A stretch of DNA of 64,000 bases from Candidatus Buchananbacteria bacterium (lineage in GTDB: Bacteria; Patescibacteriota; Patescibacteriia; 2-01-FULL-39-33), in contig JBAYFY010000001.1 of NCBI GenBank assembly GCA_041666945.1, positions 55,813 to 119,812 on the forward strand. The letters run 5' to 3'. The notes under the pieces are model-generated. The model searched no databases. It saw nothing but the letters and a program-made list of their open reading frames with translations, and had not been told where the DNA came from. The first letter of the stretch is position 1. The number at the start of each line of letters is the position of its first letter. The translations under genes and the position numbers were made by a program. Below, piece by piece: positions 8,481 through 26,509 of this stretch.

Positions 8481-8509
8481 TGGTATAATTAATACATAAC
8501 TTATCCACA
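8481..8509 (+). promoter_or_regulatory. Extended -10 (TGGTATAAT, 8481-8489) followed by a perfect DnaA-box 9-mer TTATCCACA (8501-8509). This is the candidate promoter/operator of the 22-kb surface operon.
   Basis: Read directly. The same 10-mer TGTGGATAAG, in reverse complement here, recurs at 40133 and 52620. Confidence 0.5.
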
Positions 8510-8516: not shown

Positions 8517-9584
8517 ATGGAAGGTAGTGAACAATTCCAGCCGGTTAATGAAGATAACCAACCCGATTATTTGAAGAATTTAGAAGTCAGCGGCAATAGA
8601 ACGGCAGATAAAAATTCGGGTGTCGGGCGATCATTTACGGGCCAGGAAAAAATGCATGTAGTTTTAATCGCGATAATCGGGGTGCTATCCCTTGGTTTTG
8701 GTTTTTGGCAGTTTTTTTTCGCCAGTCAAAACCCCTTTCAGGATATCGTTAAAGCCGGTGAAAAATCCCGCGCCGAAAGATTGGCTTTACAGCAGGCGCA
8801 AATTAAGGACATGATGACTCGCGATACTGATACCGACGGCCTGGCGGATAATCTGGAATTAAGCATTTACCATACCAGCCCTTATCTGAAAGACAGCGAT
8901 TCTGACGGCATGGATGATAAAATGGAAATAGACAGAGGCACCGATCCCAATTGTCCGCAAGGCCAGAAGTGTACGGGCTTGCCCACTATGGACTCAACTG
9001 CCAGCCCCCTGACCGGCAGTGCATTGTCCTCCGGTTCGGCCACTTCCACCGGATCGTCTGCAACCGCCATTCAGCAAACAACCAGCAATTATTCGGCTTT
9101 GACCCCGTCGGTCATCAGGCAAATGTTGCAAAACAGCGGTATAAGCGACGAGGACTTAGCCGATACTACCGATGAAGAATTGGTGCAGATTTTTGCCCAG
9201 TATTTACAAAATAATCCGACCATGGCGCAGCAGTTGCAGCAATACGGCTTAATTGATCCCACGGTTTTTTCTTCTTACGCGCTGGGCGGAAATTCGGTCA
9301 TTGCCGATAATTCGGCTGACTTGACTGATCAAAACGGTTCAACTTCAGAAACGATCAGTACCGCCGCAAGTGGCTGGGCCAATGTTAATTTGGAGTCATT
9401 CGGCGTTACCACTATGGCTGATTTCAAAAAGTTATCCGGCGCGCAAATTAGGCAGATCTTGATCAAATCCGGCGGCGATGCCGCCATATTAAACGCTGTC
9501 GGTGACGCCGAATTAAGACAGATATTCATCAGTCAATTAGAAAAACGCGTTGTTTCTTCAACAGCCACCAGCACTAGTCAATAA
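8517..9584 (+). CDS. Bitopic membrane protein with thrombospondin-type-3-like Asp-rich Ca-binding repeats
   Basis: TM at aa ~47-70. DTDTDGLADNLE and DSDSDGMDDKMEIDRGTDPNCPQG fit D-x-D-x-D-G-x-x-D. Two C-terminal EL(V/R)QIF helical repeats. Confidence 0.7.
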   Translation: MEGSEQFQPVNEDNQPDYLKNLEVSGNRTADKNSGVGRSFTGQEKMHVVLIAIIGVLSLGFGFWQFFFASQNPFQDIVKAGEKSRAERLALQQAQIKDMMTRDTDTDGLADNLELSIYHTSPYLKDSDSDGMDDKMEIDRGTDPNCPQGQKCTGLPTMDSTASPLTGSALSSGSATSTGSSATAIQQTTSNYSALTPSVIRQMLQNSGISDEDLADTTDEELVQIFAQYLQNNPTMAQQLQQYGLIDPTVFSSYALGGNSVIADNSADLTDQNGSTSETISTAASGWANVNLESFGVTTMADFKKLSGAQIRQILIKSGGDAAILNAVGDAELRQIFISQLEKRVVSSTATSTSQ

Positions 9585-9589
9585 AAATC

Positions 9590-12500
9590 ATGAGAGTAAA
9601 TAATCATAAATTTTGGTTAAGACATTTCAGCGCCCTGGCTTTAATGCTGGGATTGTTTGTTGTCGGCCAGAAAATCGTTTTGGCGCAATCGGGGGTGATT
9701 TATGAAATAGACGAAACGGTAGTTCAGGCGCAAGCGGCAAAATTTTGCGCGTCAGCCGGATCGGTCGGCGCAGTCGGAGGAGAAGAGGGGCTGGATTGTA
9801 CCAACGAAATATTCGCCAAAACCCAGGCAAAGTTAGCTGAATGCGCCGCGATGTACGCCGCCGCTCAATCCTCTGCCGCCGTTTGCACCGGTCCTCAATC
9901 GCTTACTTGTTTGGCTGAAGTGCAAGTAAAAATCGCCGAATATCATGAGGCCTGCGATTCCTACAGCAAATATTACGTGGAAGGCCAACAGATGGCCGCG
10001 GATTTGGCTAAGGAGGAAAGAGACATAAAAAGCAAAAAAAGAAGAATTCAATTTTTAAACGCCTTAAGCACCTCGGCCTCCAAGGCCTTGGATACTTTGC
10101 TAAGAAGCGTTACGCGCGAAGCCACCAAGATCGCTTTCACCGCGCTTAAGGGTCAGAAGCCGGCTTACATTACGGAAGGTTGGAATGCTTATCTGATTAA
10201 CGCCGCCGATTCGGCTTTAGGCGATTTTGTTGATAACTTCAGTCAGCATTACGGCATGGATATTTGCCAGCCCGATTTGTCGGTGCAGTTATTGATTAAT
10301 GTGCAACTTAGCCAAACCACTCCTCGCGTCAGGTGTACCTTTTCCGAAATTATGAGCAATTGGCAGGAAGCCGTAACCAATCCTGTTTTTCCTTTGGAAT
10401 ACACGCTGGCTTTGCGGCCGGGAGAAAATGATATTACCGCTTCATTGTTAGCTTTGGATTTGCGCGACATGGCGGTCAATCAGCAAGTTACGGCTAAAAC
10501 CTATGAAGCCAGCACCAATCAGGGCTGGTTAAGCAAGGTTACGCTTAATGGCAAGATTTTGACTCCCGGAACGTTACTGCACGACATGATGACCGATGCC
10601 ATGCTGAAGAAGGGCAATTCGCAATATTCCATTACTTGGACGGAAACGGCGATGGCCGTGCCATTTGAATTTATGGACACGGTCGTGGCCGAGTCGTTGG
10701 GATTATTGAAAGAGGGCTTGTTCTCTTTGGAACAATCAGCTTATGGCAATAATTCTTCCAGTGGCGGTAGCAGTAATTTAGCCAGCCAGGGCGCTAACAT
10801 TCTTTCCGGCGCTTTAACCGCTTTATTCAATCCCTCGGCCAGTCCGATAATCACCGAAGGCACTAAAGGCGCAGAGGCCAGAATTAATAATGCCATCTCC
10901 GGCAGCCAGGGTCAGCAAGGAGGGAAAATTGATTTGATAGTTAAGCTTTCCTCTTGCGATGATTCGGCCAAAACCAATCCCGGACCCATGGATTGCGTTA
11001 TGGATGATGCTTTGGCGCAGGCAGTCAAGAGTAAGACCTACGTAATTGATTTGCCTGATCAGATTAAAAATCGCGTTTTTTCTCCTCGATCCGAGCAATC
11101 CAATTCTTTGCAGACAGCCATTCCTTATCGTTCCATTTTGATTTTGCGCCAATATCGCATCGTGCCCGTGGGTTGGGAAGAGGCCGCCGATGTTATCAGG
11201 AACTCCAACAGCAATCGCGAGTACACTTTAGGTGAGTTGATTAATTGCTATGAGGGCATAGGCAAAAACGGTTGCACCACCAACAATTTTAAAGGCATGG
11301 TTGATCCTTACTGGACGCTTAAGGCGTATGAAACCAGCTGCCGCCGCCAGGGTTATGGCGCTCTTAATTTGAATAAAGATGATCAAAGCGGCACTATCGG
11401 ACGTTTGGAATACTGCTCCGATGAACAGCAATGTCTGCAGGAAGACGAAAACGGCGCCTGTTTGGCTTATGGCTATTGCAGTGAAGAGCGCCGTATCTGG
11501 GATTTGGGCAAGACCTGCCCGGCTCGGGCCAATTCTTGCCAGACCTATACTTCGCGCGCCGGTAACGCCGCTTCTTATTTAACCAATACTTTGGATTTTA
11601 GAAATTGCAATGCGCAAGTCGCCGGTTGTCGCTGGTATGCCGTTGATTATAATCCGTCCAGCCAAACTTGGACTAATTTGGGCGGCGGCACGCAGTTTAC
11701 CTCGCCCGAGGTCATCAATCAGGTTATCACTTTCAGCAGAAGCAACAGGGATTGGTGGGTTCAGGCCGGGCATCAAGTCAGCGCCAACTCCCGTTTGCGT
11801 TTGGCCTCGCCCTGCTCTTCGGAGATGTGCAAGTTGGATGCCACCGGTAAAGGTTGCGTTTTCCATCAGACCACCGGCGGAAATTATTGCAGTTTCCAAT
11901 ATTCAGAAGCCGCTGGCGCAACCGGTTACATCCCTCAAGATCCTTCTTGCAATGTCCCGGACAATGGCGTGTCTTGCCAGTTACGCTTGTGCAATGATCC
12001 CAAATTGTTTGCCAATGTTTATGCTGCCGAGATAGAAAATACGCCCAACCTCGGCTTAGAAAGGGCGCTTAACGGCCAGGAAACATGGAAAGCCGCTTCC
12101 TGGACTTTGGCGTTTATTGATAACGGCAATCGCCATTTGCGCGTTACTGCTGACAAACATAGCGGCAACGCTTCGCTTCTCATCAAAACGCTGTACGCGC
12201 CGGCCGATCTTATAAGTTATGAGCCGGCTATACCGGTGGAAAAGAATACCAATTATAATGTCAGATTCTACTATAAAGGATCAATTAACGGCAGTATTAA
12301 TGTGGAAGTTAGGGCCGGTGATGGAGACGGTCTGTCTTTTGGCCAAAACAGTGATCTCTGGCCGTCTTTATTAAACAATTTACAATTAACTGATGGCTCA
12401 ACGGGTTGGCGCGAGGTAAACTTCAATTTTAATTCTGGCGATAACGAACAAGTCGTTCTGGTAGCGCGTAACTCCGCCGGTGTTTACGCTGATTTGTATT

Positions 12501-15500
12501 TGGATGACTTTGAGTTTTATCCCATTAGCACCGCTTGCGGCGCCGGCGCCGTCTCGGTTTTTGTTTCTTCACGCGAAGGCGCGACTGAAATGTATTTTGA
12601 TCGTGATGCCAAAACTTGTTCGGCGGCAAGCGACGGTTGCAGCCAATTTATCCGCACTAAGTCCAACTTAGGCGGCAATATTGTCATTAACGGCGGCTTT
12701 GACGGCGCATTATATGATTGGAGCAATTTAAGTTTGGCGGAAAATACCAAAGCAAAAATCACCCACATTAACAGTTTGGACAGCGCCAGTTCCAATAAAT
12801 CAGTTCAGGTTACCCCCGGCCAATATTATTTTTTGGCTTTTGACGGGTATCAAGCTTCCGCGGGTCAAACAGCGGAAGTTGATGCTTTCTTAAGATTCAA
12901 ATCCAAAGCCAATGCTGTTTTGCAGGTTGCCACTTCTTCGGCCACTTGCGAGTGGGCTCAAGAAAAAGACGGCAGCGTTCCCCAGACCCTGGCCTTGAGG
13001 TTCACTCCCGGTTCTTATGCCACCTCCAGTCGCTTCTTTTGCAAATTCAAAGCGCCGGATAATGCCGTTAAAATGGAATTATGGCTGTCCAGCGGAATTA
13101 GCGGCCAGGAAGCGGTTATTGACAATGTTAAAATTGAAGCGATTTCTTTTAATGCCACTTATCCCAGCAATTACAGCGATTACAATCCGGCAACTCGGCC
13201 GACCGAACAAATATCCTATCTTAAGAAAGCCCCAGCTTACTACAATTGCTATGATGCTTATCCGGAAATCATCGGTTGGCAATGGCCGCAAAATCAACAA
13301 GAATTAACCGGTGTTTTAAAAAATAAAAACGCTAATTGTTCCAATTACTCCGGTGTCTGCACGCCGCAAGAAGTCGGCTGTGAATTATACCGGCCGCTTA
13401 ACGGCGATCCGTCCATCCCGGGTGTGGCGCAGGATTTTGACGCTTGTCCCAAGGAATGCGCCGGCTACCAATTATACAATCAGGAAGAAACCAACTTCAT
13501 TAATCAAACCTTCAAGCAATTTATCGCCGATAAGAAACTTAAAACCTGTTCGGCCAGTTATGCCGGTTGCGATGAGTTCACCAATCTGGATGCTGCCGGC
13601 CAGGGTGGAGAACAAAAAGAATATTATAGCCAGATTCGGGCCTGCCAAAAACCAGCCATTGATGACGGCGCCTATTATACTTGGGAGGGTTCGGATATCA
13701 CCGGTTATCAGCTGGTCGCTTTCAGTTTGAAAAAATCGCAGATTGCCAGCGATCCGGAAATCACCGGCGCCGGCAAAGGTAGCGCTCCTTGCACTAACTT
13801 GGCTCACAATGTTTCCGGTAACGCCATTTGCAGCGATCCGACAGATGCCCGAGGCCCGGGGAATGATCGTTATGATTTTGGCGTCTGCGTCAAAGATGAT
13901 ATGGTTAGCAACCCGGATTGTCGTGAATTGTACGATGTGGACGGCAATATTCATTATCGTTTATTGTCTCGCACTGTCTCCGTTTCCGATAATTGCCATC
14001 CGTACCGCCGCACCATGACCGAGACCTCGCTAACTGAAGCCCAAACCAATTGCACCAGCCATAGCGGTTGGTGGAATGGGAACAATGAATGTATTTACAT
14101 GACCATCCCCGGCCAAGGCAAGACCTGTCCGGCCACGGCTCAAGGATGCCGCGCCTATACCGGCAATCGGGGCAATAATGTTAAGAATGCCATTAACGTG
14201 ATTAATTTCACCGCCAGCAGTACCGCTTTGGATTTGTGGGAAGACGAGAACGGCGGTAAAAACGGCTTGTTCATTTCTTCCGAATCAACTTTCCCCGGCG
14301 GCAATTCCCTGTCTAATAAAGCCGACAATTCCACTATAAACTATCCGATAACCATTGCCAAAAATAAGGCCTACACTTTATCGTTCTGGGCCAAAGGCAA
14401 TGCCGCTTATTATTTTGACAATATCAGATTTGCTGAAAAGAGTGGCGCTAATTGGGATGATAATTCCGCCGCTAACGGTGATAATTATTTTTCCGCCAGC
14501 CGCTTAGTCGGAGAAAATCTGATTAACCCGCGGACGCAATTGACGGCGGAATGGAAGCGTTATGAACTGGGGCCGTTGTTTGTAACTTGGGAGCCCGGCG
14601 ATGGCAATTATTTGGAATTTTCCATGCCGAACGGCCAGATTGTTTATCTGGATAATGTCATCTTAAAAGAAATCACCAATCAAGTTTACGCCATAGAAAA
14701 TTCCTGGTTCACGCCCGTTTCCTGCGATAACAAATTGGATGATCCGGAGGGCAGCCGGGCCAAAGCCGAAAATGCCTGCCAGGACGCCAAATCGGGCCGT
14801 TGCTCGGTTGGCGAGATGCTGGGTTGCGCCGGCTACCTGGATCGCAGTAACAAAACGTCCTATTTAAGATCGTTTGCTTCTTTGTGCCGGCCGGAAGCCG
14901 CCGGTTGCGAGGCCTTGATTGACACGTTCAATTCCAGCGCGCCCCAAGCCCAATCGTTTAACGGGACCAATGGCGCCAATCATGACGATGTCACCGTTGC
15001 CGCCGATACTTTGGTTTATTTGGTTAATGATGACAAATACGCTTGCGCCAAAGGAGATAAGGGTTGCACTCGCTATGGCTTGCCCCTCATAGACAAGTGG
15101 GATGAGATTACCGGCTACCGCGACGTTTATCTTGAGAATGACCCGGATCGTTACTCTACCGATTTGTGCGCCGCGGAAAATCTTTGGTGCGAGGAATGGA
15201 CCGGCAATAATACTCTGATTTACTTTAAAGATCCGCACGGCAAAGTTTGTCAATTCGCTTCCGCCGATAACACCAACAGCTGGGATAAATGGGTCAAGTC
15301 CGATACCGCCGAAACCTGCCCCACCACCTATCAACAAACGCTGGGCTTAAGCTATAAGGCGGCGACAGACAAGTTGCAACCGCTCGGCCCGATTAATTCG
15401 GTGACTTTGCAAGAACCGGCTGATCCGGCTTATAGCGGCTGGGTGGGATCGTGTTCAGCCGAACAATCCGGCTGCAGCGAGTATATTGATCCGTTGGACA

Positions 15501-18500
15501 ATTTGGCGTCCAATCTTATACCGCAACGTTGCGAAGGCAAAAATATTTGCGCGGATGTGTCCATTAAGAAAAACATCCTGTATGTTTTGTCCGATAATAT
15601 CCAAGCGGGAAGCGTAATCTGCAGCGATGTTGATAATTTGAGTAATAATTTTTCCGATGATCTCGGTCATTACCTTTATTTGGCCACGGATAATCTCAAG
15701 TCATTGACTTGCCGTGTAACTTTCCAGACCAAAGACGGCTCGCCGATAGATTTAATCAAAGACAAGATCGGATTGGGCAGCGTTTCTTATGTTTTAAATT
15801 CAAAAGTTACCGGCGGAGATTGCAACGGCCAGGTGGATTACCACAAAGGTTGCATCCTGTTTAATGACCGCAGTCAGTTGGATTACGGCAATTTGATCAA
15901 TAGCGCCACCACCTCCTTGGTTTTCTCCAGCCGTTTGACTCGGGATAATAATTATCCGCAGGGGATTAACGGCCTGGCTCAACCAGTATCGCCAATAGCG
16001 ACGGCCGCCGCCGGGAAACCTAAAGATGCCAATATTATTTTAAAATCTCAGCCCAATCGCGCTTGCGCCAGTTGGCTGACTTGCTCTACTTTTGAAAAGA
16101 AAAAGGAGGGCCAGTCATCGGCTTTGGCCCCGTATTTTTTCAGCGATCAAGATTCTTGTTTGGAAGTCGGCGCTTGCAATTCTTTGGGAGACAACGGCAT
16201 TTGTAATAATTATCTGACTAATGAGGCCGTAAGCAGCGATACTTATTCTCCTTCGTCAGATGCCAATAAATCCGGCTTTTCACGCGTCGGTTATTATTCT
16301 TTTGACGCCATGACGCAGGTCGGCCAATCGTCCAACATAGTTAATGGCAATTTTGAAGAGACCTTTGGCGCCACCACTCAGCCGTTAGGCTGGAAGCTGT
16401 CCACTTATTATTGCGCCAGCAATTCCAATTGCGCCAGCGGCAATCCCGATATTGTTTACAGAAATTGGCAAGCCAGCTACGTTACCGTCGGCCGCGATGG
16501 CACCAAAGCCAAGGATGGCGTGGGATATTTGAAAGTCAATTCCGGCTGGGGGGTTATTTCCGAATCGGTTGATATATTGCCTAAGCAGGAATATTTCTTA
16601 TCCGCCTGGGTTCATACCAAGGATTTGCAAGGACCGGGCGCCGGCGGTCGCTTGCCTTACGCGGAATTGCGTTTGCGTTTCCTTAATTCCAAAGGCCAGC
16701 CACGGCCCGGCTTGGCTACCGTTGACGGCGGTACTTATGAGGGTGATTGGGTTAAGGGTGGAATTATGCAAATACCCACGGGTTTGCCTTGGCAGCAAGT
16801 AGTTGTGCATTTTACCACCGGTGACAATGTTTCTGGCGTGCAATTCGCTTTGTTTAATATGAATCCGGATGGCGAAAAAGGCATAGACAACAGCAAGCTC
16901 GGCGGTTATACCATTTGGGATAATGTTAATCTTAAGCCGTTGCTTAAATCCAATAACGCAGGTTATATTGATCGCACTTGTCGCGTTTACCCCAGTATGA
17001 ACGCCCCGGCTTGCAAATATAATAATGGCAATAATTATTTTTACGGCCAATACGGTTATTGTCTGACGCCGGATCCTGCCAATAGCCAGCAGTGTTTGCA
17101 ATGGTGGCCGGTTGATTCTATTCGCGGCGAGACCTTAAGCGATTTTTCCAGTTATTACAGCGAGCGTTATCCTTTGTATTATTGTTTGGAAAAGAAAACT
17201 ATTACTTTGGACGTGTCTCAATACACTGGCAATTTCGGTTTGTTCGGCGAGGGCGTTAATGAGTCCGGAATGGAATCGTTAAAGTTTGACCAAAGCGCTA
17301 AACAGACCAAAGCCACTTCATTCAATATCAGTCCGACTTGGTCGCCGCTTTTCCGTTATCCTTTCATTTACAAATTCCAATTTGACGGTTTGTTTATCGC
17401 TATCGGCGATACGGCCAGCCATACTTTGTTCGGCGGCGCTCTGTCAGTCGGCATGTGGAAAAATTTGGTTTGCGCCAAGCCGCTGGGCATCATTCCTTTG
17501 CCGGTTTGTTATGTGCCGATCGGCAATAATCTGATTACTTCATCGGATGAAGCGGGGGCCATAACTACTCCGGCTCAAGAGGAAATCCAGGCCTGGATTC
17601 AAAACAACCCCAGTAATCGGGTGTGTGAATTTTCCGTTTTGGCCACCCTGCAGGATTCTGATGCCAATAGTCCGGTCGGTTGCGAATGCGATTCAACAGC
17701 AGAGAAAAACAAGGGCGCAAAATTGAATGATGAAATCAGCGATAGCATCTGCCAAAGCAAAAACAATTGCGGCGCCGGCTCGCCGAACTATAATTGCATT
17801 ACCGCTGATTTGGCCAAGGATTATACTCAACCCATCAGTGATTACACTTATCTTTGCGAAACTACGGCCGAGCCCTGTTCTTGCGCCGCTCCTGACGCCG
17901 AAGGAAAATGCGAAGATTCAGTTCATTGCTCCAATTCGGGCACTAATAAATGCGCCAAAGTGTTTATTGATAGCGGCGCTTCCGCCGGAGCGGCCGGAGT
18001 CGCGCAAACGATTTCCCAGCAAAACCAATCATTAAATGACGCTTATCAGAATTGTTCCGACGAAAATCCCTGCGAAGGTTACGATTCAGGCAGCGGTTTC
18101 TGGTCCAAACTTTGGAGCGGCATTAAACAATTTTTCGGTTCTATTTTCAGCACCTTGGGTAATTTATTGGATATAGTTTTTGCTCCCAATTCGCTTAATT
18201 TGGCCGCTGAAGATTCTTGGGGCGGTTGGGGAGCGGTAGCCATCGCCGGTTACGGCCAATTATTAAGTTTCGTACCGGTTAATATCGTTTTGCATGTGGA
18301 GTTGCCTTGGCATACTGCCAAGAAGTTTGACACTTCCGGAGGGGTTTTGGGCAACTTGGCCGGCATGATTATTCAGCAGGCAGGCGTGGATTTAGGGGTT
18401 TCCACTTTCGGTTTAAGGATTATTACGGATGAGGATTCGGAATTTGGTAAAAATTTAACCGATCCCAATCCCACAGTAACCGGAGACGTTCTGGGGTTTG

Positions 18501-21235
18501 CCAAGTTTTTGGACTTTAATAAGCCGGCCGGCATGGGCGATAAAATGGGCGCCATAACCGTGGTGGGAAATTTTGCCGGCAAACAAGTCGTGGAATATTG
18601 TTCCAAATTAGTCCAAGTTGTCAACTCTGGCGATGAAAATAAGGCCTGGGCCAGTCGCTTATCTCCCGGTTCGCAATATTTGGATTATTTGGGCAAGGAT
18701 TGCGTCAAAGACAGTTCGGTTTCCGGCGACGCCATTCCTTCAGGCGTGGGTATTGTTACGCCCAGCAATGATGAATTATTTTCCGACGGTTGTTTCTATA
18801 GCTCCGCTTATTGCTTGGCGGAAAGCCGTCGTCTTTATAGCGCCTCCGGTCAATTATTGGGCTTTTACCCTTTGAATTTGTGCCAGAATTTTATCGGTAT
18901 TGACGATGGCAGGGGAGTCAATGATCCTGATGATGCCACGCGTAAATTATATTGTGCCGAAGATATTTCCCTGGAGGGCAGACAGCGCACCGCTTATCTT
19001 AATCAAGCCAATGCCTTAAACTGCCAGATATCCTATAATTCCCGTCCCGCTACCGATTCCTCGGATAATGATTATTTTCAGGTTCACAGCTTTGCCAAAA
19101 ATGGATCGCTCACCATGAGTGATTGCCAGATTAATTATAAATACTTCTGCGTCAATGACAGAAGTTTCGGGGCCACAGGAGTTTGGAGATCAAAGAAACT
19201 TATTTATCGCCGTGTTTACGCGGCCGTCGGTTATAATTATACCAGCGATTACAAACCCTTCGGTTCTTTGGTAGCGCCGGAAAATGGCCAATATCCCAAT
19301 GAGTGGGACACGCGTCCTGATTCCAGCGGCAATCAGCCGATTTTCTATGAATTCCCCGGCGGAGAAAATCCGCCCTATCAAGCGCGCGCCGGGCAGAAAT
19401 CAGGCACCTCCATCTATTATATTGATAATTTTTCCGTTAATAAGCCGGATTTATTGCAATTATTCGGCCGTTCTTACAGTTTATGGCAGTGGCAAGCGGA
19501 TAAATCCAGCGATCCCTTGATCGGCCATTATGCCGACGTTACCGGCACGACCGGGTCTAATAACTCGGTTTGGAGTTTGCCCACGTTATATTGTCCCAAT
19601 AATTCGCGTCCGACTAACACCTATCTGTCATTCTGTTTGGTCAAGCCGGAATTCACTTTAGCCAAAGTCAGCCCCACTATTGTCAACAGCATCGGCGCGG
19701 TCAAAGTCAGTTTTAATTCCAAAATTGATCCGGATCAAGTGCCTATCCGTTCTTATGATGTTGATTGGGGCGATGGCAGCATCTCATCTTATGCCGGTTT
19801 GTCTTTGGCCAGCCGTCCTACCTCCTCAAATACTTTTGATTTGTATCATTTCTATAATTATGACAGTTTAGCCAACAAAAATTTGCGGGAATGCGAGACC
19901 AAAGCCGGTGTTCTGGTTTTGGGCGACGGCACGACAGAAACAATTGAAGAGTTCAATGATGATTTGACTCGGGGCGCCTGCCAAGAACCGGTTGGGTCGG
20001 TTCCCAATGCCTCTGCTTTCCATGTGCCGATTAAATTGACTGTGAGAGACAATTGGGCTTCAGCCAATTCAATAACGATTAAGGATTTGATTGTTTTAAG
20101 ACGCGATACTTATGATGCGGAACAGCAAGACGCCATTGCCGAGTGCAAGACGACCAGTTACAGTTCAGCTTTGGGCCAGCAATGCGCCAGCGGCAATCCT
20201 TGCTGTTCAGCCGCTTGTTATTGGCGGCCGGCGGAAGAAGTTAATACGGAGCAATGTTGTGCCACTTATTTCGGCGGTTGGCGCAGGTGCCAGGAGATAG
20301 GCGACGGTTATTGCGATCTGGGCGAACAGGCCACCGATGCCAATGCCGAACATTATAGTCCGGATGATTGCGGCAATATCGTATCCAATGTTACGCCGAT
20401 TGATTATGCCGATGGCATCTGTCCGGAAACCAAGTCATTGGATGATGACATTGATTGTCCTTTAGGCCAAGGCAGTTTGGTTACTTTAGCCCATGACAGT
20501 TATGACTGGCAGGCGTTTATGGCGGTAAATACCGTCGGCGGCGGTTGCGGCGGAACTCCGGATACTCAATTTAATGATGGCAGCGGCGCCAGCAAGGGCA
20601 ATTTTAACTTTAACGCCGATGCCGCTACTTTTTCCGGCTATGCCGCCAGCGGCAATACCGAATACTTTCTTGATTTGGTTTATGCTCCCAATGATACGGA
20701 AAACGACAAACAATTGCGTTACGGCGATATTTTCCGTTTGGTGCCTTGTTTCCAGGGCGTTTACGGTTTCGGTTCCAATAATTGTCCGACAGTATCGTCT
20801 GTTAATCCTGCCACTGCCGTGTCAATTCCCGCAATCAGCCCGATAAAATTGAATATTTACAAAATACAGCCGAATTGGTGGCAGCAATTATGGGGAACAG
20901 ACCCCGGAGATTGGAAAGCTTACCTTGATACTTGCGGAACGGACGGCGATGTTTATTTTAAGGTTTGCCAAAGTCAAGCTTGCAACGGTCCGGCTGATAA
21001 AGTGGGAATCGGCGATCGGGTGGTTTTAAGGATGGTAACCAATTCGGCGCAGGCTGGCGAGCCGCTTGAAGCCAGTTTGTATGATGTGGCTTTGCATGTG
21101 GGCGGAGAGGATAGAGCGCCGACTTTCTTGAATACCGAAGAAGACGCGTCCCGTCCTTACAAGGCGGCTCAAGTGAATGTTTCACCGTCTTTGAATTTTC
21201 GTCTCTGTAACCGTTATGGCAATTGCGGATATTAA
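9590..21235 (+). CDS. Giant (3881 aa) secreted cysteine-rich multidomain surface protein. It has CBM4/9-like jelly-roll modules and a PKD-like motif, and is adhesin-like.
   Basis: Single uninterrupted ORF. N-terminal signal peptide MRVNNHKFWLRHFSALALMLGLFVVGQKIVLAQS. At least 8 recurrences of C-x5-GC-x2-[FYW]. Module starts of the NIVINGGFDG... and NIVNGNFEETFG type. YDVDWGDGS (PKD signature). One internal hydrophobic segment. Confidence 0.85.
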   Translation: MRVNNHKFWLRHFSALALMLGLFVVGQKIVLAQSGVIYEIDETVVQAQAAKFCASAGSVGAVGGEEGLDCTNEIFAKTQAKLAECAAMYAAAQSSAAVCTGPQSLTCLAEVQVKIAEYHEACDSYSKYYVEGQQMAADLAKEERDIKSKKRRIQFLNALSTSASKALDTLLRSVTREATKIAFTALKGQKPAYITEGWNAYLINAADSALGDFVDNFSQHYGMDICQPDLSVQLLINVQLSQTTPRVRCTFSEIMSNWQEAVTNPVFPLEYTLALRPGENDITASLLALDLRDMAVNQQVTAKTYEASTNQGWLSKVTLNGKILTPGTLLHDMMTDAMLKKGNSQYSITWTETAMAVPFEFMDTVVAESLGLLKEGLFSLEQSAYGNNSSSGGSSNLASQGANILSGALTALFNPSASPIITEGTKGAEARINNAISGSQGQQGGKIDLIVKLSSCDDSAKTNPGPMDCVMDDALAQAVKSKTYVIDLPDQIKNRVFSPRSEQSNSLQTAIPYRSILILRQYRIVPVGWEEAADVIRNSNSNREYTLGELINCYEGIGKNGCTTNNFKGMVDPYWTLKAYETSCRRQGYGALNLNKDDQSGTIGRLEYCSDEQQCLQEDENGACLAYGYCSEERRIWDLGKTCPARANSCQTYTSRAGNAASYLTNTLDFRNCNAQVAGCRWYAVDYNPSSQTWTNLGGGTQFTSPEVINQVITFSRSNRDWWVQAGHQVSANSRLRLASPCSSEMCKLDATGKGCVFHQTTGGNYCSFQYSEAAGATGYIPQDPSCNVPDNGVSCQLRLCNDPKLFANVYAAEIENTPNLGLERALNGQETWKAASWTLAFIDNGNRHLRVTADKHSGNASLLIKTLYAPADLISYEPAIPVEKNTNYNVRFYYKGSINGSINVEVRAGDGDGLSFGQNSDLWPSLLNNLQLTDGSTGWREVNFNFNSGDNEQVVLVARNSAGVYADLYLDDFEFYPISTACGAGAVSVFVSSREGATEMYFDRDAKTCSAASDGCSQFIRTKSNLGGNIVINGGFDGALYDWSNLSLAENTKAKITHINSLDSASSNKSVQVTPGQYYFLAFDGYQASAGQTAEVDAFLRFKSKANAVLQVATSSATCEWAQEKDGSVPQTLALRFTPGSYATSSRFFCKFKAPDNAVKMELWLSSGISGQEAVIDNVKIEAISFNATYPSNYSDYNPATRPTEQISYLKKAPAYYNCYDAYPEIIGWQWPQNQQELTGVLKNKNANCSNYSGVCTPQEVGCELYRPLNGDPSIPGVAQDFDACPKECAGYQLYNQEETNFINQTFKQFIADKKLKTCSASYAGCDEFTNLDAAGQGGEQKEYYSQIRACQKPAIDDGAYYTWEGSDITGYQLVAFSLKKSQIASDPEITGAGKGSAPCTNLAHNVSGNAICSDPTDARGPGNDRYDFGVCVKDDMVSNPDCRELYDVDGNIHYRLLSRTVSVSDNCHPYRRTMTETSLTEAQTNCTSHSGWWNGNNECIYMTIPGQGKTCPATAQGCRAYTGNRGNNVKNAINVINFTASSTALDLWEDENGGKNGLFISSESTFPGGNSLSNKADNSTINYPITIAKNKAYTLSFWAKGNAAYYFDNIRFAEKSGANWDDNSAANGDNYFSASRLVGENLINPRTQLTAEWKRYELGPLFVTWEPGDGNYLEFSMPNGQIVYLDNVILKEITNQVYAIENSWFTPVSCDNKLDDPEGSRAKAENACQDAKSGRCSVGEMLGCAGYLDRSNKTSYLRSFASLCRPEAAGCEALIDTFNSSAPQAQSFNGTNGANHDDVTVAADTLVYLVNDDKYACAKGDKGCTRYGLPLIDKWDEITGYRDVYLENDPDRYSTDLCAAENLWCEEWTGNNTLIYFKDPHGKVCQFASADNTNSWDKWVKSDTAETCPTTYQQTLGLSYKAATDKLQPLGPINSVTLQEPADPAYSGWVGSCSAEQSGCSEYIDPLDNLASNLIPQRCEGKNICADVSIKKNILYVLSDNIQAGSVICSDVDNLSNNFSDDLGHYLYLATDNLKSLTCRVTFQTKDGSPIDLIKDKIGLGSVSYVLNSKVTGGDCNGQVDYHKGCILFNDRSQLDYGNLINSATTSLVFSSRLTRDNNYPQGINGLAQPVSPIATAAAGKPKDANIILKSQPNRACASWLTCSTFEKKKEGQSSALAPYFFSDQDSCLEVGACNSLGDNGICNNYLTNEAVSSDTYSPSSDANKSGFSRVGYYSFDAMTQVGQSSNIVNGNFEETFGATTQPLGWKLSTYYCASNSNCASGNPDIVYRNWQASYVTVGRDGTKAKDGVGYLKVNSGWGVISESVDILPKQEYFLSAWVHTKDLQGPGAGGRLPYAELRLRFLNSKGQPRPGLATVDGGTYEGDWVKGGIMQIPTGLPWQQVVVHFTTGDNVSGVQFALFNMNPDGEKGIDNSKLGGYTIWDNVNLKPLLKSNNAGYIDRTCRVYPSMNAPACKYNNGNNYFYGQYGYCLTPDPANSQQCLQWWPVDSIRGETLSDFSSYYSERYPLYYCLEKKTITLDVSQYTGNFGLFGEGVNESGMESLKFDQSAKQTKATSFNISPTWSPLFRYPFIYKFQFDGLFIAIGDTASHTLFGGALSVGMWKNLVCAKPLGIIPLPVCYVPIGNNLITSSDEAGAITTPAQEEIQAWIQNNPSNRVCEFSVLATLQDSDANSPVGCECDSTAEKNKGAKLNDEISDSICQSKNNCGAGSPNYNCITADLAKDYTQPISDYTYLCETTAEPCSCAAPDAEGKCEDSVHCSNSGTNKCAKVFIDSGASAGAAGVAQTISQQNQSLNDAYQNCSDENPCEGYDSGSGFWSKLWSGIKQFFGSIFSTLGNLLDIVFAPNSLNLAAEDSWGGWGAVAIAGYGQLLSFVPVNIVLHVELPWHTAKKFDTSGGVLGNLAGMIIQQAGVDLGVSTFGLRIITDEDSEFGKNLTDPNPTVTGDVLGFAKFLDFNKPAGMGDKMGAITVVGNFAGKQVVEYCSKLVQVVNSGDENKAWASRLSPGSQYLDYLGKDCVKDSSVSGDAIPSGVGIVTPSNDELFSDGCFYSSAYCLAESRRLYSASGQLLGFYPLNLCQNFIGIDDGRGVNDPDDATRKLYCAEDISLEGRQRTAYLNQANALNCQISYNSRPATDSSDNDYFQVHSFAKNGSLTMSDCQINYKYFCVNDRSFGATGVWRSKKLIYRRVYAAVGYNYTSDYKPFGSLVAPENGQYPNEWDTRPDSSGNQPIFYEFPGGENPPYQARAGQKSGTSIYYIDNFSVNKPDLLQLFGRSYSLWQWQADKSSDPLIGHYADVTGTTGSNNSVWSLPTLYCPNNSRPTNTYLSFCLVKPEFTLAKVSPTIVNSIGAVKVSFNSKIDPDQVPIRSYDVDWGDGSISSYAGLSLASRPTSSNTFDLYHFYNYDSLANKNLRECETKAGVLVLGDGTTETIEEFNDDLTRGACQEPVGSVPNASAFHVPIKLTVRDNWASANSITIKDLIVLRRDTYDAEQQDAIAECKTTSYSSALGQQCASGNPCCSAACYWRPAEEVNTEQCCATYFGGWRRCQEIGDGYCDLGEQATDANAEHYSPDDCGNIVSNVTPIDYADGICPETKSLDDDIDCPLGQGSLVTLAHDSYDWQAFMAVNTVGGGCGGTPDTQFNDGSGASKGNFNFNADAATFSGYAASGNTEYFLDLVYAPNDTENDKQLRYGDIFRLVPCFQGVYGFGSNNCPTVSSVNPATAVSIPAISPIKLNIYKIQPNWWQQLWGTDPGDWKAYLDTCGTDGDVYFKVCQSQACNGPADKVGIGDRVVLRMVTNSAQAGEPLEASLYDVALHVGGEDRAPTFLNTEEDASRPYKAAQVNVSPSLNFRLCNRYGNCGY

Positions 21236-21265
21236 TTCTCTTTTTATTTATTTTATTGAATTTTT

Positions 21266-24200
21266 GTGATGCCTTACCAAAAACACAAAAGAATAATTTT
21301 AACTCTGTTATTAGCCGCCGTAGTGGGAGGCGGAGTTTTGGGTGTTTTTATCAGCTGTTCTTACGCATATACTAATAGTTATATACAAAGCGCGGGACAA
21401 CTAACAGATAAAAGAATACGATTGACTGGCAATGAAAATATAGAATATCAAGTGTGGCGGTTTGGTAATCCGCCCGAATATTATTTAGTAAATCCTGCCG
21501 GGCAAGATGCGGATACAGCTATGCTCGCCGATGAGAATGGCAATCTGGTTGATCCTAATACTGGAAAATCTCAATCACAAGCAACGGCAGGAACCAGGAC
21601 AGAGACCTCCGGTGCTCAATCCGCTCTTTCCGATGTAATCGCCCGCATGCTGGCCTGGATACTTTATGGTTTAACCTACGGTTTGGGTTGGATTTTGATT
21701 TTAGTCACTAAAGCCATGTTGGCCGTCTCCACTTTTAATAATTTTACCAATCACACGGTAACCACTGTCGGTTGGAAAATTATCAGGGACGTATGCAATA
21801 ATTTTTTCATTATTTTGCTCTTAGTTTCCGCTGTCGGCACGATTCTGCACCAGAAAAACTACGATTTTCGCACGATGATGCCCAAGATCCTGTTAGCGGC
21901 GGTTCTTATCAATTTTTCCAAAATGTTTTTCGGCTTGATGATTGACGCCTCGCAGATTTTAATGTTGACTTTTGCCGCTCCGCTGGCGCAAAGCACCGGC
22001 TATAATGTGATTTTGAATGCCCTGGGCTTGCCTGATTTAATGTCTTTAAGCGGCGTGGCCGCTCAATTGGAAGCAGTCGGTTTCAGCACTTGGAATTTGG
22101 TGGCAGCCATGTTGTTTGCGGTTATTTTTACTTTTATCGCTTTAGTGGTGATCGTGTGCATCACTGCTGTTTTGATGTACCGGGTTGTTTATATGATGTT
22201 TCTGGTTGTGTTATCGCCCCTATATTTTTTCGGCTGGGCCTTTCCTGCCGCTGGCAAACATACCAATCAAATTTTAAGCGATTTGGTCAAATACCTGATT
22301 ATCGGTCCGGCCATGATGTTTTTTATTTATATTTCCCTGATTACGCTTAAGGATCTTGGAAATGGTGAACAGTTTGACAGTACGATTTCCTATGATTTGC
22401 AAACTACCGGGACCGGCGGCAGCGCGGAATTGCAAAAAGAAGCGGCGGTGGCGACCGGGCTTAGTACGGAGAATTCCACTATTTTGGCCTTATCTAAAAT
22501 GGGGACAGTGGAAAAAATTATTAATTTCGGTTTATTGATCGGTTTGCTTGTTTGCTCTTTGGTAATCGGTCAAAAATTGGGTACGGCCGGCGGTTCCTGG
22601 GCCGGCAAAGGCATGGGATTTTTAACTAAACAAGGCAAGCGTTTCAGCGGCTTTAATCTGGCCAAACGTACAGCTAAAGAAGCTCCCAGAGCCATTAGCA
22701 CGGCCGTTGATGACAGATTGGGCATCAGGCAAAGGTTGTATTCCGGCCTCTACCAAGTCGGCGGCAAAAACATACCTTTCGCGCGTGAGGCCCTGGGCGG
22801 CAAAATAGAGTCGCTGGAAGCGGGCACCACCAAGAGGTTTAATCAAAGAATCAGAGCAGTGGCCCAGGGAGCAAAAATTGATAAAAAGGATGAGAACCAA
22901 TTGCGCGATTTAGCTTCCGGCGGCGCTAAATATGAAAAGATTGCCGCTATTCAGGCCCTGATGAAGAAGGGTTTAATCAGAGATGATGAAATCAATGAAA
23001 GCAAGAAACGCAATAATATTGATTTGGTTAATCAAGCGCGTCTCGCTTTGGAGGGGACGGAATTAGGCAAAGAGTTTGATGAGAATTTGAGAAAATACAA
23101 TCCCAATTTGGCCATGAATACCATGTATACCAGGGCAGGCAAGATTAATCGCGAGAAATTGGAGTCGGATCTTAAGACCGGCAAAGTTGATTTGAATAAG
23201 ATTATGGGCAGTATGGACCCCGCGACCTTAACCAATCTTAATGAAGCGTTGGGCGGCAAAAAAAATGACGCCGGACAATTTGACGATACTTTGGCTAAAT
23301 TTTTAATGAAGCATGGCGCCGGCGATTTATCTAAATTGGATAAAGCCATGTCCTCGGAAGTCAAGAAGAGCATCTGGTCCGGGGTCTCTCACACGTCTTT
23401 CATTAAAAAGGACGCCCAAGGCAATAATATTATTGACGCCGCCGGCAGGGCTGCTTATGACGAAGATTTGCGCAAAGAATATTTGTCAACGAAATATGAC
23501 GTGGCCAAGGCCTATGATCGCAGCGATCCGGAACAAAAAGAAAAAGCGCGTAAGTATTTCAGCGAGAATCGCAATAAGGTTTTGGAGAATATGCACTCTG
23601 ACGGCATGACGGCCGATTTTATGCGCGATTTCGGCGATTTGGTTTCGCCTAAAGAATTGCAGGAGAAATTCGGCGATCGCAGCAAGGAACATTCGGGTAA
23701 GATGGAAGCTGCTCTAAGAGAGGCGATTGTCGGTAATGGCGGAAACATCAGCCCTTACGATTTCGGCCAATTGAATGGCAATCTGGCAGAAGCCAGAAAA
23801 GGATTAAGCGTTGCCACTGGAGCAAGCAGAAGCGCCGCCCAGCAGGCCGTTGATCAAGCGGCAAAGAATTTGAAAGACGCCGAAGAAATGATTAAGAAGT
23901 ATTTGTTGTCCCAGGGGTCGTTTGAAGGCATCACCGGGCAAGTCAATGCGGAAAACAAATCAAATATCGTCGGATCGCTTAAAGCCGAAGAAGCGGAAAA
24001 AATCAAGTGGGGCAGTTTGTCCGATGCCGATCAGAGAGCGGTAGCTCAAGGCATGGATGCCAACACCTTGTGGGTAATCGGCGCCAGAGGCAATAATAAT
24101 GAATTAATAAAAGGCGTCAAACAGAGAATTTTTGACGAAGTGGAAAACGACCCGGTGAAAAAGGGGTACGATGATTTGATTGAGCGAGCTAAAAAATTAA

Positions 24201-24505
24201 GATCCGAAGACGAGCAAATAGAGAGCGATTTAAAGAGCTTGCAGGCAAAAGGCGATCCGACATTGCAAAACGATATTAACGCGTTAATGCTAAGACGGGT
24301 AGAATTGAGAGGCGATCAAGCCAGAGGCATTGAAGGAGAGAGAAAGAAAATAAATGACGCCATTGAAAAATTTTTAAAAGAAAACGAGAGATTCTTCGTG
24401 GATATTAACGAAGATCGCCCGAAATTTAAGCCGACCGATTGGGATAAAAAAGCCCGAGCGATTAAGGGCAAGAAAAAGGGCGGTGATTTTGAAGAACAAG
24501 CATAA
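21266..24505 (+). CDS. VirB6/TrbL-like polytopic membrane protein (TcpH/PrgH-type) with a ~700-aa charged coiled-coil C-terminal extension
   Basis: About 7-8 TM helices between aa ~120-440 (e.g. ILLAAVLINFSKMFFGLMIDASQILMLTF, VVIVCITAVLMYRVVYMMFLVVLSPLYFFGW). A K/E/D-rich tail follows. It starts 30 nt after the giant gene. Confidence 0.55.
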   Translation: MMPYQKHKRIILTLLLAAVVGGGVLGVFISCSYAYTNSYIQSAGQLTDKRIRLTGNENIEYQVWRFGNPPEYYLVNPAGQDADTAMLADENGNLVDPNTGKSQSQATAGTRTETSGAQSALSDVIARMLAWILYGLTYGLGWILILVTKAMLAVSTFNNFTNHTVTTVGWKIIRDVCNNFFIILLLVSAVGTILHQKNYDFRTMMPKILLAAVLINFSKMFFGLMIDASQILMLTFAAPLAQSTGYNVILNALGLPDLMSLSGVAAQLEAVGFSTWNLVAAMLFAVIFTFIALVVIVCITAVLMYRVVYMMFLVVLSPLYFFGWAFPAAGKHTNQILSDLVKYLIIGPAMMFFIYISLITLKDLGNGEQFDSTISYDLQTTGTGGSAELQKEAAVATGLSTENSTILALSKMGTVEKIINFGLLIGLLVCSLVIGQKLGTAGGSWAGKGMGFLTKQGKRFSGFNLAKRTAKEAPRAISTAVDDRLGIRQRLYSGLYQVGGKNIPFAREALGGKIESLEAGTTKRFNQRIRAVAQGAKIDKKDENQLRDLASGGAKYEKIAAIQALMKKGLIRDDEINESKKRNNIDLVNQARLALEGTELGKEFDENLRKYNPNLAMNTMYTRAGKINREKLESDLKTGKVDLNKIMGSMDPATLTNLNEALGGKKNDAGQFDDTLAKFLMKHGAGDLSKLDKAMSSEVKKSIWSGVSHTSFIKKDAQGNNIIDAAGRAAYDEDLRKEYLSTKYDVAKAYDRSDPEQKEKARKYFSENRNKVLENMHSDGMTADFMRDFGDLVSPKELQEKFGDRSKEHSGKMEAALREAIVGNGGNISPYDFGQLNGNLAEARKGLSVATGASRSAAQQAVDQAAKNLKDAEEMIKKYLLSQGSFEGITGQVNAENKSNIVGSLKAEEAEKIKWGSLSDADQRAVAQGMDANTLWVIGARGNNNELIKGVKQRIFDEVENDPVKKGYDDLIERAKKLRSEDEQIESDLKSLQAKGDPTLQNDINALMLRRVELRGDQARGIEGERKKINDAIEKFLKENERFFVDINEDRPKFKPTDWDKKARAIKGKKKGGDFEEQA

Positions 24506-24508
24506 ACT

Positions 24509-25027
24509 ATGGCTGATCAAATGACAAAAGAGTTGGGCGCAATCGCCGAGTTAAAACGGTTCAATCCTTGGATCGACTCTTTTCAGTTGTCTGATCCCGA
24601 GATTTATGCGGTTATTGATTTGATCGGCCAGGTGATTTGGGGCGACATGACTTTAGAAGAATTCCCTTTGGCTTTGCAGAAAGCGGTTATCAAGGATGAC
24701 GCCGCTAAACGACGTTTGATTATAGAAATTGCCAAAAACCGTTTTAAGGATTTTCAAGACGATCTTGGCGATGTTGACGCTTTTATCAATAATTTTCAGT
24801 CCGGGAACAGTGTCGTCTCCCCTGTGGTTGAAAACAGCTCTCCTAAGGAAACAAAAAACCTCCCGCCTTCGCCGGCTGTTTCTGCTTTAGTCAAACCGGT
24901 TAACAGCCGGGATGAAATATTGAGACAGTATGACTGGTCGGCCACCACCGGCTTGGAACGCCGTTTGCTGTTGGAAGAATTAGGCGTCAGCCGGCAGGAG
25001 TTGGAAGATTATTTGAAGAGTAATTAA
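24509..25027 (+). CDS. Hypothetical protein (172 aa), translationally coupled within the T4SS-like module
   Basis: ORF with a 3-nt gap to its neighbours. No recognisable motif. Confidence 0.55.
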   Translation: MADQMTKELGAIAELKRFNPWIDSFQLSDPEIYAVIDLIGQVIWGDMTLEEFPLALQKAVIKDDAAKRRLIIEIAKNRFKDFQDDLGDVDAFINNFQSGNSVVSPVVENSSPKETKNLPPSPAVSALVKPVNSRDEILRQYDWSATTGLERRLLLEELGVSRQELEDYLKSN

Positions 25028-26507: not shown

Positions 26508-26509
26508 TT

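What the first reader, a model, noticed from the sequence alone, without database searches (positions are those of the whole stretch)
8481..8509. Shared operator-like motif TGTGGATAAG (DnaA-box 9-mer) just downstream of extended -10 elements at three cell-surface operons
The exact 10-mer occurs at 8500-8509 (reverse complement), 40133-40142 and 52620-52629. Roughly 0.1 occurrences are expected by chance in 64 kb. All three are intergenic and lie 11-19 nt downstream of a TG-TATAAT-type -10. Each sits in front of a surface operon: the giant-protein/T4SS operon, the fibre-protein/pilus-assembly operon and the major pilin. Two sites share a 14-mer, TGTGGATAAGTTAT. TTATCCACA is the canonical DnaA box. 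This points to a common repressor or activator coordinating the three surface systems, either DnaA itself or another regulator with a similar site.
Basis: seen in the sequence. Interest (0 to 1): 0.55.

Follow-up and report, generated by a model that had tools for sequence, protein, structure and literature searches.

The report
Shared DnaA-box operator at surface-operon promoters
Three promoters in a Candidatus Buchananbacteria (CPR) genome, driving a giant-protein/type IV secretion operon, the type IV pilus assembly operon and the major pilin gene, each carry the same 9-bp perfect DnaA-box sequence just after the -10 element, and it is conserved in distant relatives, so it is very probably a shared regulatory protein-binding site, with DnaA the leading candidate binder.

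Summary
TGTGGATAAG occurs exactly three times in 64 kb, against 0.08 expected. Each copy lies 10-18 nt after a TATAAT box in front of a surface operon.

The box is under selection. At orthologous promoters from relatives, only the -10 and the 9-mer TGT[G/T]GATAA stay invariant while the spacers diverge. These relatives go down to about 38% identity in neighbouring proteins.

The reverse orientation at the giant-protein/T4SS promoter is itself conserved in four lineages. This argues against an RNA leader, an alternative-sigma promoter or a sigma-dependent pause signal. It points to a DNA site for a trans-acting protein.

Information content across 32 sites is confined to the nine bases of the canonical DnaA box, with no dyad or second half-site. 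That fits a monomeric binder such as DnaA domain IV. The likely effect is steric control of initiation or escape, because the box sits at about +1 to +20.

The binder is not proven. A recurrent TTATCAACA variant departs from the classical DnaA consensus. No dnaA/oriC sequence from this lineage could be fetched.

My estimates are about 0.85 for a DNA-level operator and about 0.5 for DnaA as the binder. This is a new member of a known kind and moderately interesting for CPR biology.

The parts
8481..8489 (+). Extended -10 element TGGTATAAT of the site 1 promoter (TSP3 / giant protein / T4SS operon)
   Evidence: Conserved as TG[G/T]TATAAT in L061, L064 and L065.
8500..8509 (-). Box 1: TGTGGATAAG, read as CTTATCCACA on the + strand. 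It is in reverse orientation relative to the gene, 10 nt after the -10 and 7 nt before the ATG at 8517.
   Evidence: Invariant, in the same reverse orientation, in four lineages down to 38% protein identity.
8517..30879 (+). Downstream gene string: TSP3-repeat protein (8517-9584), 3881-aa giant protein (9590-21235), a 1079-aa protein, PrgI-like protein (26510-26953), VirB4 with a TraG P-loop domain hit (27690-29594), ComF-like protein (30199-30879).
   Evidence: Pfam; source-given names. That these form a single operon is inferred from the tight spacing.
40105..40124 (+). Site 2 core promoter: TTGTATAAT (TATAAT at 40108-40113) followed by a second -10-like box, TATAGT, at 40119-40124.
   Evidence: Both boxes are conserved in alignment A2.
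40132..40141 (+). Box 2: TGTGGATAAG, 18 nt after the TATAAT. The extended form in relatives is TGT[G/T]GATAAGTCAA.
   Evidence: TGT-GATAA is invariant in 12 lineages.
40277..52551 (+). Pilus operon: 885-aa and 566-aa lineage-specific proteins, PilM, three small proteins, PilB, a receiver-only response regulator, PilT-like protein, PilC.
   Evidence: Pfam. Synteny is conserved in L001-L003.
52595..52614 (+). Site 3 core promoter: TGCTATAAT (52595-52603) and a second -10-like box, TATAAA (52609-52614).
52620..52629 (+). Box 3: TGTGGATAAG, 16 nt after the -10, at the 5' end of the major-pilin leader.
   Evidence: Present at the pilin promoter in about 20 lineages, with variants TGTGGAAAA, TGTGGACAA, TGTGGATAT and TGTTGATAA.
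52740..53150 (+). Major type IV pilin gene (MNKKGFTLIEL...). The first in-frame ATG is at 52716, but the conserved start is 52740.
   Evidence: Pfam N_methyl hit; alignment of leaders.

Best explanation
The 9-bp sequence TGTGGATAA (the reverse complement of TTATCCACA) is a protein-binding operator. It lies within or just downstream of the core promoters of three operons that build the cell-surface machinery of this Candidatus Buchananbacteria bacterium: the TSP3/giant-protein/T4SS operon, the type IV pilus assembly operon and the major pilin gene.

The box lies 10-18 nt after the -10 hexamer, roughly +1 to +20 relative to the inferred start sites. At sites 2 and 3 it lies only 4-7 nt after a second -10-like box. 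A protein bound there would overlap the RNA polymerase footprint. The most likely effect is therefore repression, by blocking open-complex formation or promoter escape. This would put the three operons under one signal.

The site is single and asymmetric, exactly nine informative base pairs long, works in either orientation, and is identical to the canonical high-affinity DnaA box. The most likely binder is therefore DnaA, through its monomeric domain IV. That would tie expression of the attachment, DNA-uptake and secretion machinery to free DnaA level, and so to replication and nucleotide status.

Shown: presence, position, conservation, use of both orientations and motif boundaries. Inferred: transcription start sites, sign of regulation and identity of the binder.

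My estimates: DNA-level operator about 0.85; DnaA as the binder about 0.5.
For: - Three exact copies in the window against 0.08 expected, all in the 5-25 nt zone after a TATAAT.
- Site 2: in 12 lineages the only invariant columns are TATAAT and TGT-GATAA, plus the nearly invariant G and T that follow the box.
- Site 1: the reverse-oriented CTTATCCACA is invariant in four lineages down to 38% identity of the adjacent protein, while the upstream spacer is unalignable.
- Site 3: the box is present at the major-pilin promoter in about 20 lineages. In L017 and L026 the box is absent while the other conserved leader modules remain, so it is a separate module.
- The exact 9-mer occurs 21 times in intergenic sequence and 8 times in coding sequence across 850 kb, where intergenic sequence is 7.5% of the total. 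GTGGATAA and TATCCACA rank among the most intergenic-enriched 8-mers, alongside -10 words.
- Information content over 32 sites is 1.2-2.3 bits at positions 1-9 and 0.84 bits or less outside. There is no dyad or repeat. This is the footprint of a monomeric binder and matches the DnaA box boundaries.
- In about 82 kb of contiguous genome (the window plus L072 and L073) there are no exact copies other than these three.
- No transcription factor gene was found in the window.
- Published context: in Patescibacteria the T4SS locus is often linked to dnaA, dnaN and ksgA (PMC12102498). Here ksgA sits immediately upstream of site 1, and parA/parB lie about 12 kb upstream of the window.
Against: - There are no binding, expression or transcription-start data.
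- In several lineages the orthologous site reads TGTTGATAA (TTATCAACA). These are L017, L019, L020 and L032 at site 2, and L035, L039 and L042 at the pilin promoter. The change is at box position 6, which is invariant C in the E. coli consensus TTWTNCACA. Box position 5, which is free in E. coli, never varies here. That pattern is not the classical DnaA degeneracy.
- No dnaA gene or oriC from this lineage could be obtained. I therefore could not show that this organism's DnaA uses this box.
- The set of 32 sites was assembled partly by looking for the motif, which inflates information content inside the 9-mer.
- The related loci are all centred on the same operons. The intergenic enrichment therefore reflects conservation at orthologous sites, not a genome-wide regulon.
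- The site 1 box is lost in more distant relatives (L068, L070).
Confidence: 0.5

Rival explanations
1. The box is an operator, but the binder is a dedicated regulator other than DnaA. Candidates include a response-regulator half-site binder or a small HTH protein encoded elsewhere in the genome. On this view the identity with the DnaA box is coincidental or only partial.
For: The recurrent TGTTGATAA variant, together with invariance at DnaA-box position 5 and variability at position 6, does not follow the classical DnaA degeneracy. There is weak extra conservation 3' of the box (G, T, Y, A; TGTGGATAAGTCAA at site 2). The pilus operon encodes a receiver-only response regulator, which implies a signalling pathway acts on the pilus system. 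A TrpR/YerC-like HTH protein is encoded about 16 kb upstream of the window.
Against: Most dedicated bacterial regulators bind dyads or direct repeats of 14-20 bp. Here there are only nine informative positions and no second half-site. No DNA-binding regulator is encoded in the 64-kb window next to any of the three operons. The consensus is the perfect DnaA box.
Confidence: 0.33
2. The motif acts at the RNA level. It would be a conserved 5'-leader element bound by an RNA-binding protein or an sRNA, or pairing within the leader, to control translation or stability of the three transcripts.
For: At sites 2 and 3 the box falls inside the predicted 5' UTR. The pilin leader does carry other conserved RNA-like modules: AAAGGTCGA and a hairpin with compensatory changes. 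The motif contains GGA, as CsrA sites do (from my own knowledge).
Against: At site 1 the box is on the opposite strand relative to the gene, and that orientation is conserved in four lineages. L045 has a reverse-oriented copy at the pilin promoter. I found no conserved pairing partner on inspection of the leaders. There is no Rfam match. The box is lost independently of the leader modules in L017 and L026.
Confidence: 0.05
3. The motif is read by RNA polymerase or a sigma factor. It could be a -10-like element causing sigma-dependent promoter-proximal pausing, or the -10 of a sigma-28-like promoter (compare GCCGATAA), or part of a second promoter.
For: xGATAA resembles the sigma-28 -10 element GCCGATAA. 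TGTG-GATAAG resembles a TRTG-extended -10. Tandem -10-like boxes occur at sites 2 and 3. The comparisons with known sigma elements are from my own knowledge.
Against: Such elements are strictly orientation-dependent, yet site 1 is reversed and conserved. The spacing to the upstream TATAAT varies from 9 to 18 nt. The key -7 T of a -10 element is absent.
Confidence: 0.06
4. The motif has no function of its own. It would be a chance match or a relic of promoter duplication, or one arm of an invertible (phase-variable) promoter, or a DNA uptake sequence.
For: Surface operons are classic targets of phase variation. At site 1 the sequence TGTGGTATAA...TTATCCACA forms an imperfect inverted repeat around the -10. 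The three promoters have similar AT-rich spacers.
Against: Chance is excluded. Purifying selection acts on the box specifically, across lineages whose spacers have diverged. No inverted partner flanks sites 2 or 3. All metagenomic copies have the same promoter orientation. The coding-sequence frequency equals my composition-based expectation, so the motif is not a genome-wide uptake sequence.
Confidence: 0.03

Closest known systems
DnaA boxes acting as transcriptional operators (for example the E. coli dnaA, nrdAB, mioC and guaBA promoters, and the B. subtilis DnaA regulon including dnaA and sda). These examples are from my own knowledge.
   Same: The 9-bp asymmetric consensus TTATCCACA is identical. 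Single boxes sit at or just downstream of the core promoter. They function in either orientation. The footprint is monomer-sized.
   Different: The target genes (type IV pilus, major pilin, T4SS/giant surface protein) are not known DnaA targets, and the phylum (Patescibacteria) is new. Relatives tolerate TTATCAACA, which is outside the classical consensus. Binding by DnaA is untested.
Classical repressor operators that overlap the +1 region and act by steric occlusion, as with lacO1, or LexA and Fur boxes
   Same: The position, between the -10 and about +20. One motif is shared by several operons, which defines a small regulon.
   Different: Those operators are dyad-symmetric sites of 16-20 bp for dimers. 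This one is a single 9-bp asymmetric site.
Origin-proximal placement of the T4SS in Patescibacteria (Quinonero-Coronel et al. 2025, PMC12102498)
   Same: The T4SS locus is of the same kind: PrgI/VirB3, VirB4 and VirB2-like pilins, with comF, recG and radA nearby as that paper reports for class ABY1, and ksgA adjacent. The paper links T4SS expression to the replication origin.
   Different: The paper proposes a gene-dosage effect and reports no promoter motif (0 occurrences of 'promoter' or 'motif'). Here the link would be a cis-acting DnaA-box-type operator, shared with the pilus and pilin promoters.

Membership tests
DnaA box (DnaA-binding site) | A 9-bp asymmetric sequence matching TTATCCACA, or the relaxed form TTWTNCACA | tested here: met
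   All three window sites are exact TTATCCACA. Information content is confined to these nine positions.
DnaA box (DnaA-binding site) | Evolutionary variation follows DnaA degeneracy: positions 3 and 5 free, T4 and C6-A9 fixed | tested here: inconclusive
   The variants TTTTCCACA and TTGTCCACA fit. The recurrent TTATCAACA (position 6) and ATATCCACA (position 1) do not. Position 5 never varies.
DnaA box (DnaA-binding site) | Bound by the organism's DnaA protein | not testable with these tools
   This needs EMSA, ChIP or DAP-seq.
DnaA box (DnaA-binding site) | The same box is clustered at the organism's oriC and dnaA promoter | not tested
None of the called genes within about 20 kb upstream of the window carry a DnaA family hit.
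Transcription-factor operator defining a regulon | Intergenic, at a fixed position relative to the core promoter, and shared by functionally related operons | tested here: met
Transcription-factor operator defining a regulon | Conserved at orthologous promoters while the flanking spacer diverges (phylogenetic footprint) | tested here: met
   Alignments A2 and A3 and the pilin leaders.
Transcription-factor operator defining a regulon | Altering the site changes transcription | not testable with these tools
   This needs a reporter or genetics. CPR bacteria are mostly uncultured.
cis-acting RNA leader motif | Strand-specific: always on the sense strand of the transcript | tested here: not met
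   Site 1 is antisense-oriented and conserved. L045 has a reversed copy. There is no Rfam hit.
Sigma-factor element (alternative -10 or sigma-dependent pause) | Fixed orientation and fixed spacing relative to the partner element | tested here: not met
   Both orientations occur, and the gap to the upstream TATAAT is 9-18 nt.
Invertible (phase-variable) promoter | A pair of inverted repeats flanking the promoter, with both orientations present in populations | tested here: not met
   No inverted partner at sites 2 or 3. All metagenomic copies have the same orientation.
DNA uptake sequence | Strong genome-wide over-representation, including in coding regions | tested here: not met
   8 copies in 786 kb of coding sequence, about equal to my composition-based expectation of 8.

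The most novel reading that the evidence does not exclude
DnaA itself is the direct regulator of the host-interaction machinery of these ultra-small CPR bacteria. A single high-affinity DnaA box at each of the T4SS/giant-adhesin, type IV pilus and major pilin promoters would couple attachment, DNA uptake and secretion to replication-initiation status. This would be a cell-cycle or nucleotide-supply checkpoint in organisms that cannot make their own nucleotides and have very few transcription factors.
Probability: 0.4. Interest if true: 0.7.

Novelty: new member of a known kind. Interest (0 to 1): 0.55.

Why it matters
Almost nothing is known about gene regulation in Patescibacteria (CPR). They are mostly uncultured, have tiny genomes and few regulators, and depend on type IV pili and a repurposed T4SS for their epibiotic life. 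My literature searches found no conserved operator described for these systems in Patescibacteria.

A conserved, easily recognised operator shared by the pilin, pilus-assembly and T4SS/giant-protein operons gives a concrete regulon. It also gives a testable candidate regulator: DnaA can be expressed recombinantly and tested by EMSA or DAP-seq on synthetic promoters without culturing the organism.

If DnaA is the binder, this offers a direct mechanistic link between T4SS expression and the replication origin. That would be an alternative to the gene-dosage idea proposed for the origin-proximal T4SS in PMC12102498. If DnaA is not the binder, the motif is a handle for fishing out a new CPR regulator.

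Tried and rejected
- RNA-level element. Rejected because the reverse orientation at site 1 is conserved. I also found no conserved pairing partner and no Rfam hit.
- Sigma-28-like -10, sigma-dependent pause or second promoter. Rejected on orientation and variable spacing.
- Invertible promoter. No flanking inverted partner at sites 2 or 3, and all copies are in one orientation.
- DNA uptake sequence. The motif is not over-represented in coding sequence.
- Local regulator gene. Pfam scans of 45 ORFs in the window found no DNA-binding regulator. The 127-aa and 166-aa proteins of unknown function look like membrane proteins from their sequences.
- Hunt for dnaA/oriC of this lineage. This search had no positive control.
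- Walking about 20 kb upstream of the window. I found relA, parB, parA, tRNAs, a TrpR/YerC-like HTH protein, glyS, smpB and infC, but no dnaA and no further box.
- More distant orthologues of the site 1 gene (L068, L070). These lack the box and have no dnaA nearby.
- Consensus -35/-10 scan. It recognises only the site 2 promoter.
- Literature searches. I found no description of this motif in Patescibacteria and no link between DnaA boxes and pilin genes.

Full report
**Observation**

The 10-mer TGTGGATAAG occurs exactly three times in the 64-kb window: 8500-8509 (minus strand), 40132-40141 and 52620-52629 (plus strand). The expected count is 0.08, and none of 100 shuffles gives three. No other intergenic copy exists within one mismatch.

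Each copy follows a -10 box:
- Site 1: TGGTATAAT 8481-8489, gap 10 nt.
- Site 2: TTGTATAAT, with TATAAT at 40108-40113, gap 18 nt.
- Site 3: TGCTATAAT 52595-52603, gap 16 nt.

Only 2.7% of window positions lie 5-25 nt after a TATAAT, so the chance that all three do is about 2e-5. At site 1 the box is inverted relative to the downstream gene, and the ATG follows 7 nt later.

The simple -35/-10 scanner recognises only the site 2 promoter. Sites 1 and 3 are extended -10 promoters without a good -35, and I infer them from sequence and conservation.

**Context**

The window comes from a Candidatus Buchananbacteria (Patescibacteria/CPR) metagenome-assembled genome. The source is ENA ERZ27249449, contig k141_1081614, 300 kb, with NCBI locus tags WCT16_. 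The genes after each site, from Pfam and source names, are:
- Site 1: a TSP3-repeat protein, a 3881-aa giant protein with a CBM_4_9 domain, PrgI, VirB4 (TraG P-loop domain hit) and a ComF-like protein.
- Site 2: two lineage-specific proteins of 885 and 566 aa, then PilM, PilB, a receiver-only response regulator, PilT and PilC.
- Site 3: the major type IV pilin (MNKKGFTLIEL).

Four other strong promoters in the window lack the box: the tRNA-Ser promoter at 30912, the divergent T4SS-pilin operon promoter at 39877, and the promoters at 45835 and 53208. The box is therefore not a general promoter feature.

**Conservation**

I fetched five genome loci with PilB as the query. I then fetched 54 metagenome loci with an alignment of the 566-aa protein. 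Orthologues of the site 1 gene came.

Of the 28 exact TGTGGATAA copies in 884 kb, about 19 lie 9-18 nt after a TATAAT at the orthologous site 2 and site 3 promoters.

In the 12-lineage alignment of site 2, the invariant columns are TATAAT and TGT-GATAA. The G and T that follow the box are nearly invariant, and the fourth base of the box is G or T.

Site 1 reads TG[G/T]TATAAT-TAAT-N3-ATAA-CTTATCCACA in four lineages. This holds down to 38% identity of the adjacent protein, although the rest of the spacer cannot be aligned. The box is absent in the more distant L068 and L070.

The pilin promoter carries the box in about 20 lineages, with variants TGTGGAAAA, TGTGGACAA, TGTGGATAT and TGTTGATAA.

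In 850 kb of de-duplicated sequence the exact 9-mer occurs 21 times in the 7.5% that is intergenic and 8 times in coding sequence. The binomial P is 6e-18, but these are largely the same orthologous sites, so the figure measures conservation rather than a genome-wide regulon. The coding count matches my own composition-based estimate of about 8. An unbiased 8-mer comparison places TATCCACA and GTGGATAA among the most intergenic-enriched words, together with -10 words.

**DNA level or RNA level**

The conserved reverse orientation at site 1 makes an RNA leader element, an alternative-sigma -10 or a sigma-dependent pause signal unlikely. So does a reverse copy plus a forward TGTTGATAAGT flanking the pilin -10 in L045. 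All of those elements are strand-specific.

The gap to the -10 varies from 9 to 18 nt. The box is lost in L017 and L026 while the other pilin-leader modules remain. It is therefore an independent module.

No inverted partner flanks sites 2 or 3, and all metagenomic copies share one orientation. This argues against an invertible promoter. The motif is not over-represented in coding sequence, which argues against an uptake sequence.

**Mechanism**

The box lies at roughly +1 to +20 of the inferred transcripts. It sits 4-7 nt after a second -10-like box at sites 2 and 3. A bound protein would therefore overlap the polymerase footprint. Repression by occlusion is the simplest reading. The sign of regulation is an inference.

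**Who binds**

Across 32 sites the information content is 1.2-2.3 bits at exactly the nine positions TGTKGATAA and 0.84 bits or less outside. There is no dyad or second half-site. There is some ascertainment bias here, because part of the site set was found by searching for the motif.

A single asymmetric 9-bp site that works in either orientation is the signature of a monomeric binder. The consensus is the perfect DnaA box TTATCCACA. No regulator gene is present in the window.

A 2025 survey reports that the T4SS of Patescibacteria is often linked to dnaA, dnaN and ksgA, and proposes a gene-dosage effect. It does not mention promoter motifs (PMC12102498). Here ksgA is adjacent to site 1, and parB/parA lie about 12 kb upstream of the window.

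Three points count against DnaA:
- The TGTTGATAA (TTATCAACA) variant recurs in several lineages. It alters box position 6, which is invariant in the E. coli consensus. Position 5, which is free in E. coli, never varies here.
- I could not retrieve dnaA or oriC for this lineage.
- There are no binding data of any kind.

I therefore rate a DNA-level operator at about 0.85, DnaA as the binder at about 0.5, and another regulator at about 0.33.

**Novelty**

My literature searches found no description of this motif or of DnaA control of pili or T4SS in CPR bacteria. DnaA boxes acting as operators are a known kind. A regulon of pilus, pilin and T4SS/giant-protein operons in Patescibacteria would be a new member of that kind. 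It is directly testable with recombinant protein.

Noticed in passing
window 52656-52664 and 52694-52709 (major-pilin 5' leader, 52610-52739): Besides the box, the pilin leader carries two more conserved modules in about 15 lineages. One is AAAGGTCGA. The other is a U-tract/hairpin/A-tract (TTCACTCGCGAGTGAA) with compensatory changes in 3 of 6 stem pairs. There is no Rfam family for it. The modules persist in L017 and L026, where the box is absent. This may be an undescribed cis-regulatory RNA of CPR pilin genes; alternatively the perfect palindrome is a dimeric operator.
   Followed up: partly
window 40108-40124 and 52598-52614: There are tandem -10-like boxes at the pilus and pilin promoters: TATAAT followed by TATAGT or TATAAA. 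The arrangement is conserved in relatives. The box starts 4-7 nt after the second one, so two overlapping promoters may be controlled differently.
   Followed up: partly
L072 13517-18182 (about 10-16 kb upstream of window position 1): relA/spoT, parB, parA, a tRNA, an NYN-domain gene and a 107-aa TrpR/YerC-like HTH protein lie just upstream of the window. This suggests the T4SS/pilus region is origin-proximal. dnaA was not found within 20 kb. The YerC-like protein is one of the few candidate DNA-binding proteins nearby.
   Followed up: partly
window 45835-45854: The promoter TGGTATAAT is followed after only 8 nt by the ATG of the 410-aa gene downstream of pilM. This looks like a leaderless mRNA inside the pilus operon. 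The sequence TGGTATAAT(A)TTAATACAT closely resembles the site 1 promoter.
   Followed up: no
L068 2968-4358 and 10888-11229: A more distant Buchananbacteria relative (same as RIFCSPHIGHO2 protein P0054) has a diversity-generating retroelement module (bAvd plus RVT_1) 6 kb upstream of its ksgA-TSP3-giant-gene locus. It also has a 23S_rRNA_IVP-family gene inserted between the TSP3 gene and the giant gene. Its site 1 promoter lacks the box.
   Followed up: no
L010 6800, L011 4975, L017 5600, L020 4050, L022 2850; window 8517-8527: The sequence GGAAGGTGA (GGAAGGTAG in the window) recurs just before or at start codons. It looks like a lineage-typical Shine-Dalgarno variant with an extra A. At site 1 it overlaps the annotated ATG (ATGGAAGG), so the true start of the TSP3 gene is slightly uncertain.
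   Followed up: no
window 34306-39842 (minus strand): The divergent operon next to site 2 encodes two T4SS_pilin (VirB2-like) domain proteins (one also carrying an SLT transglycosylase domain) and RadA. Together with ComF and RecG nearby, this matches the ABY1-class T4SS neighbourhood described in PMC12102498. Its own promoter (TGGTATAAT at 39877, minus strand) has no box.
   Followed up: partly
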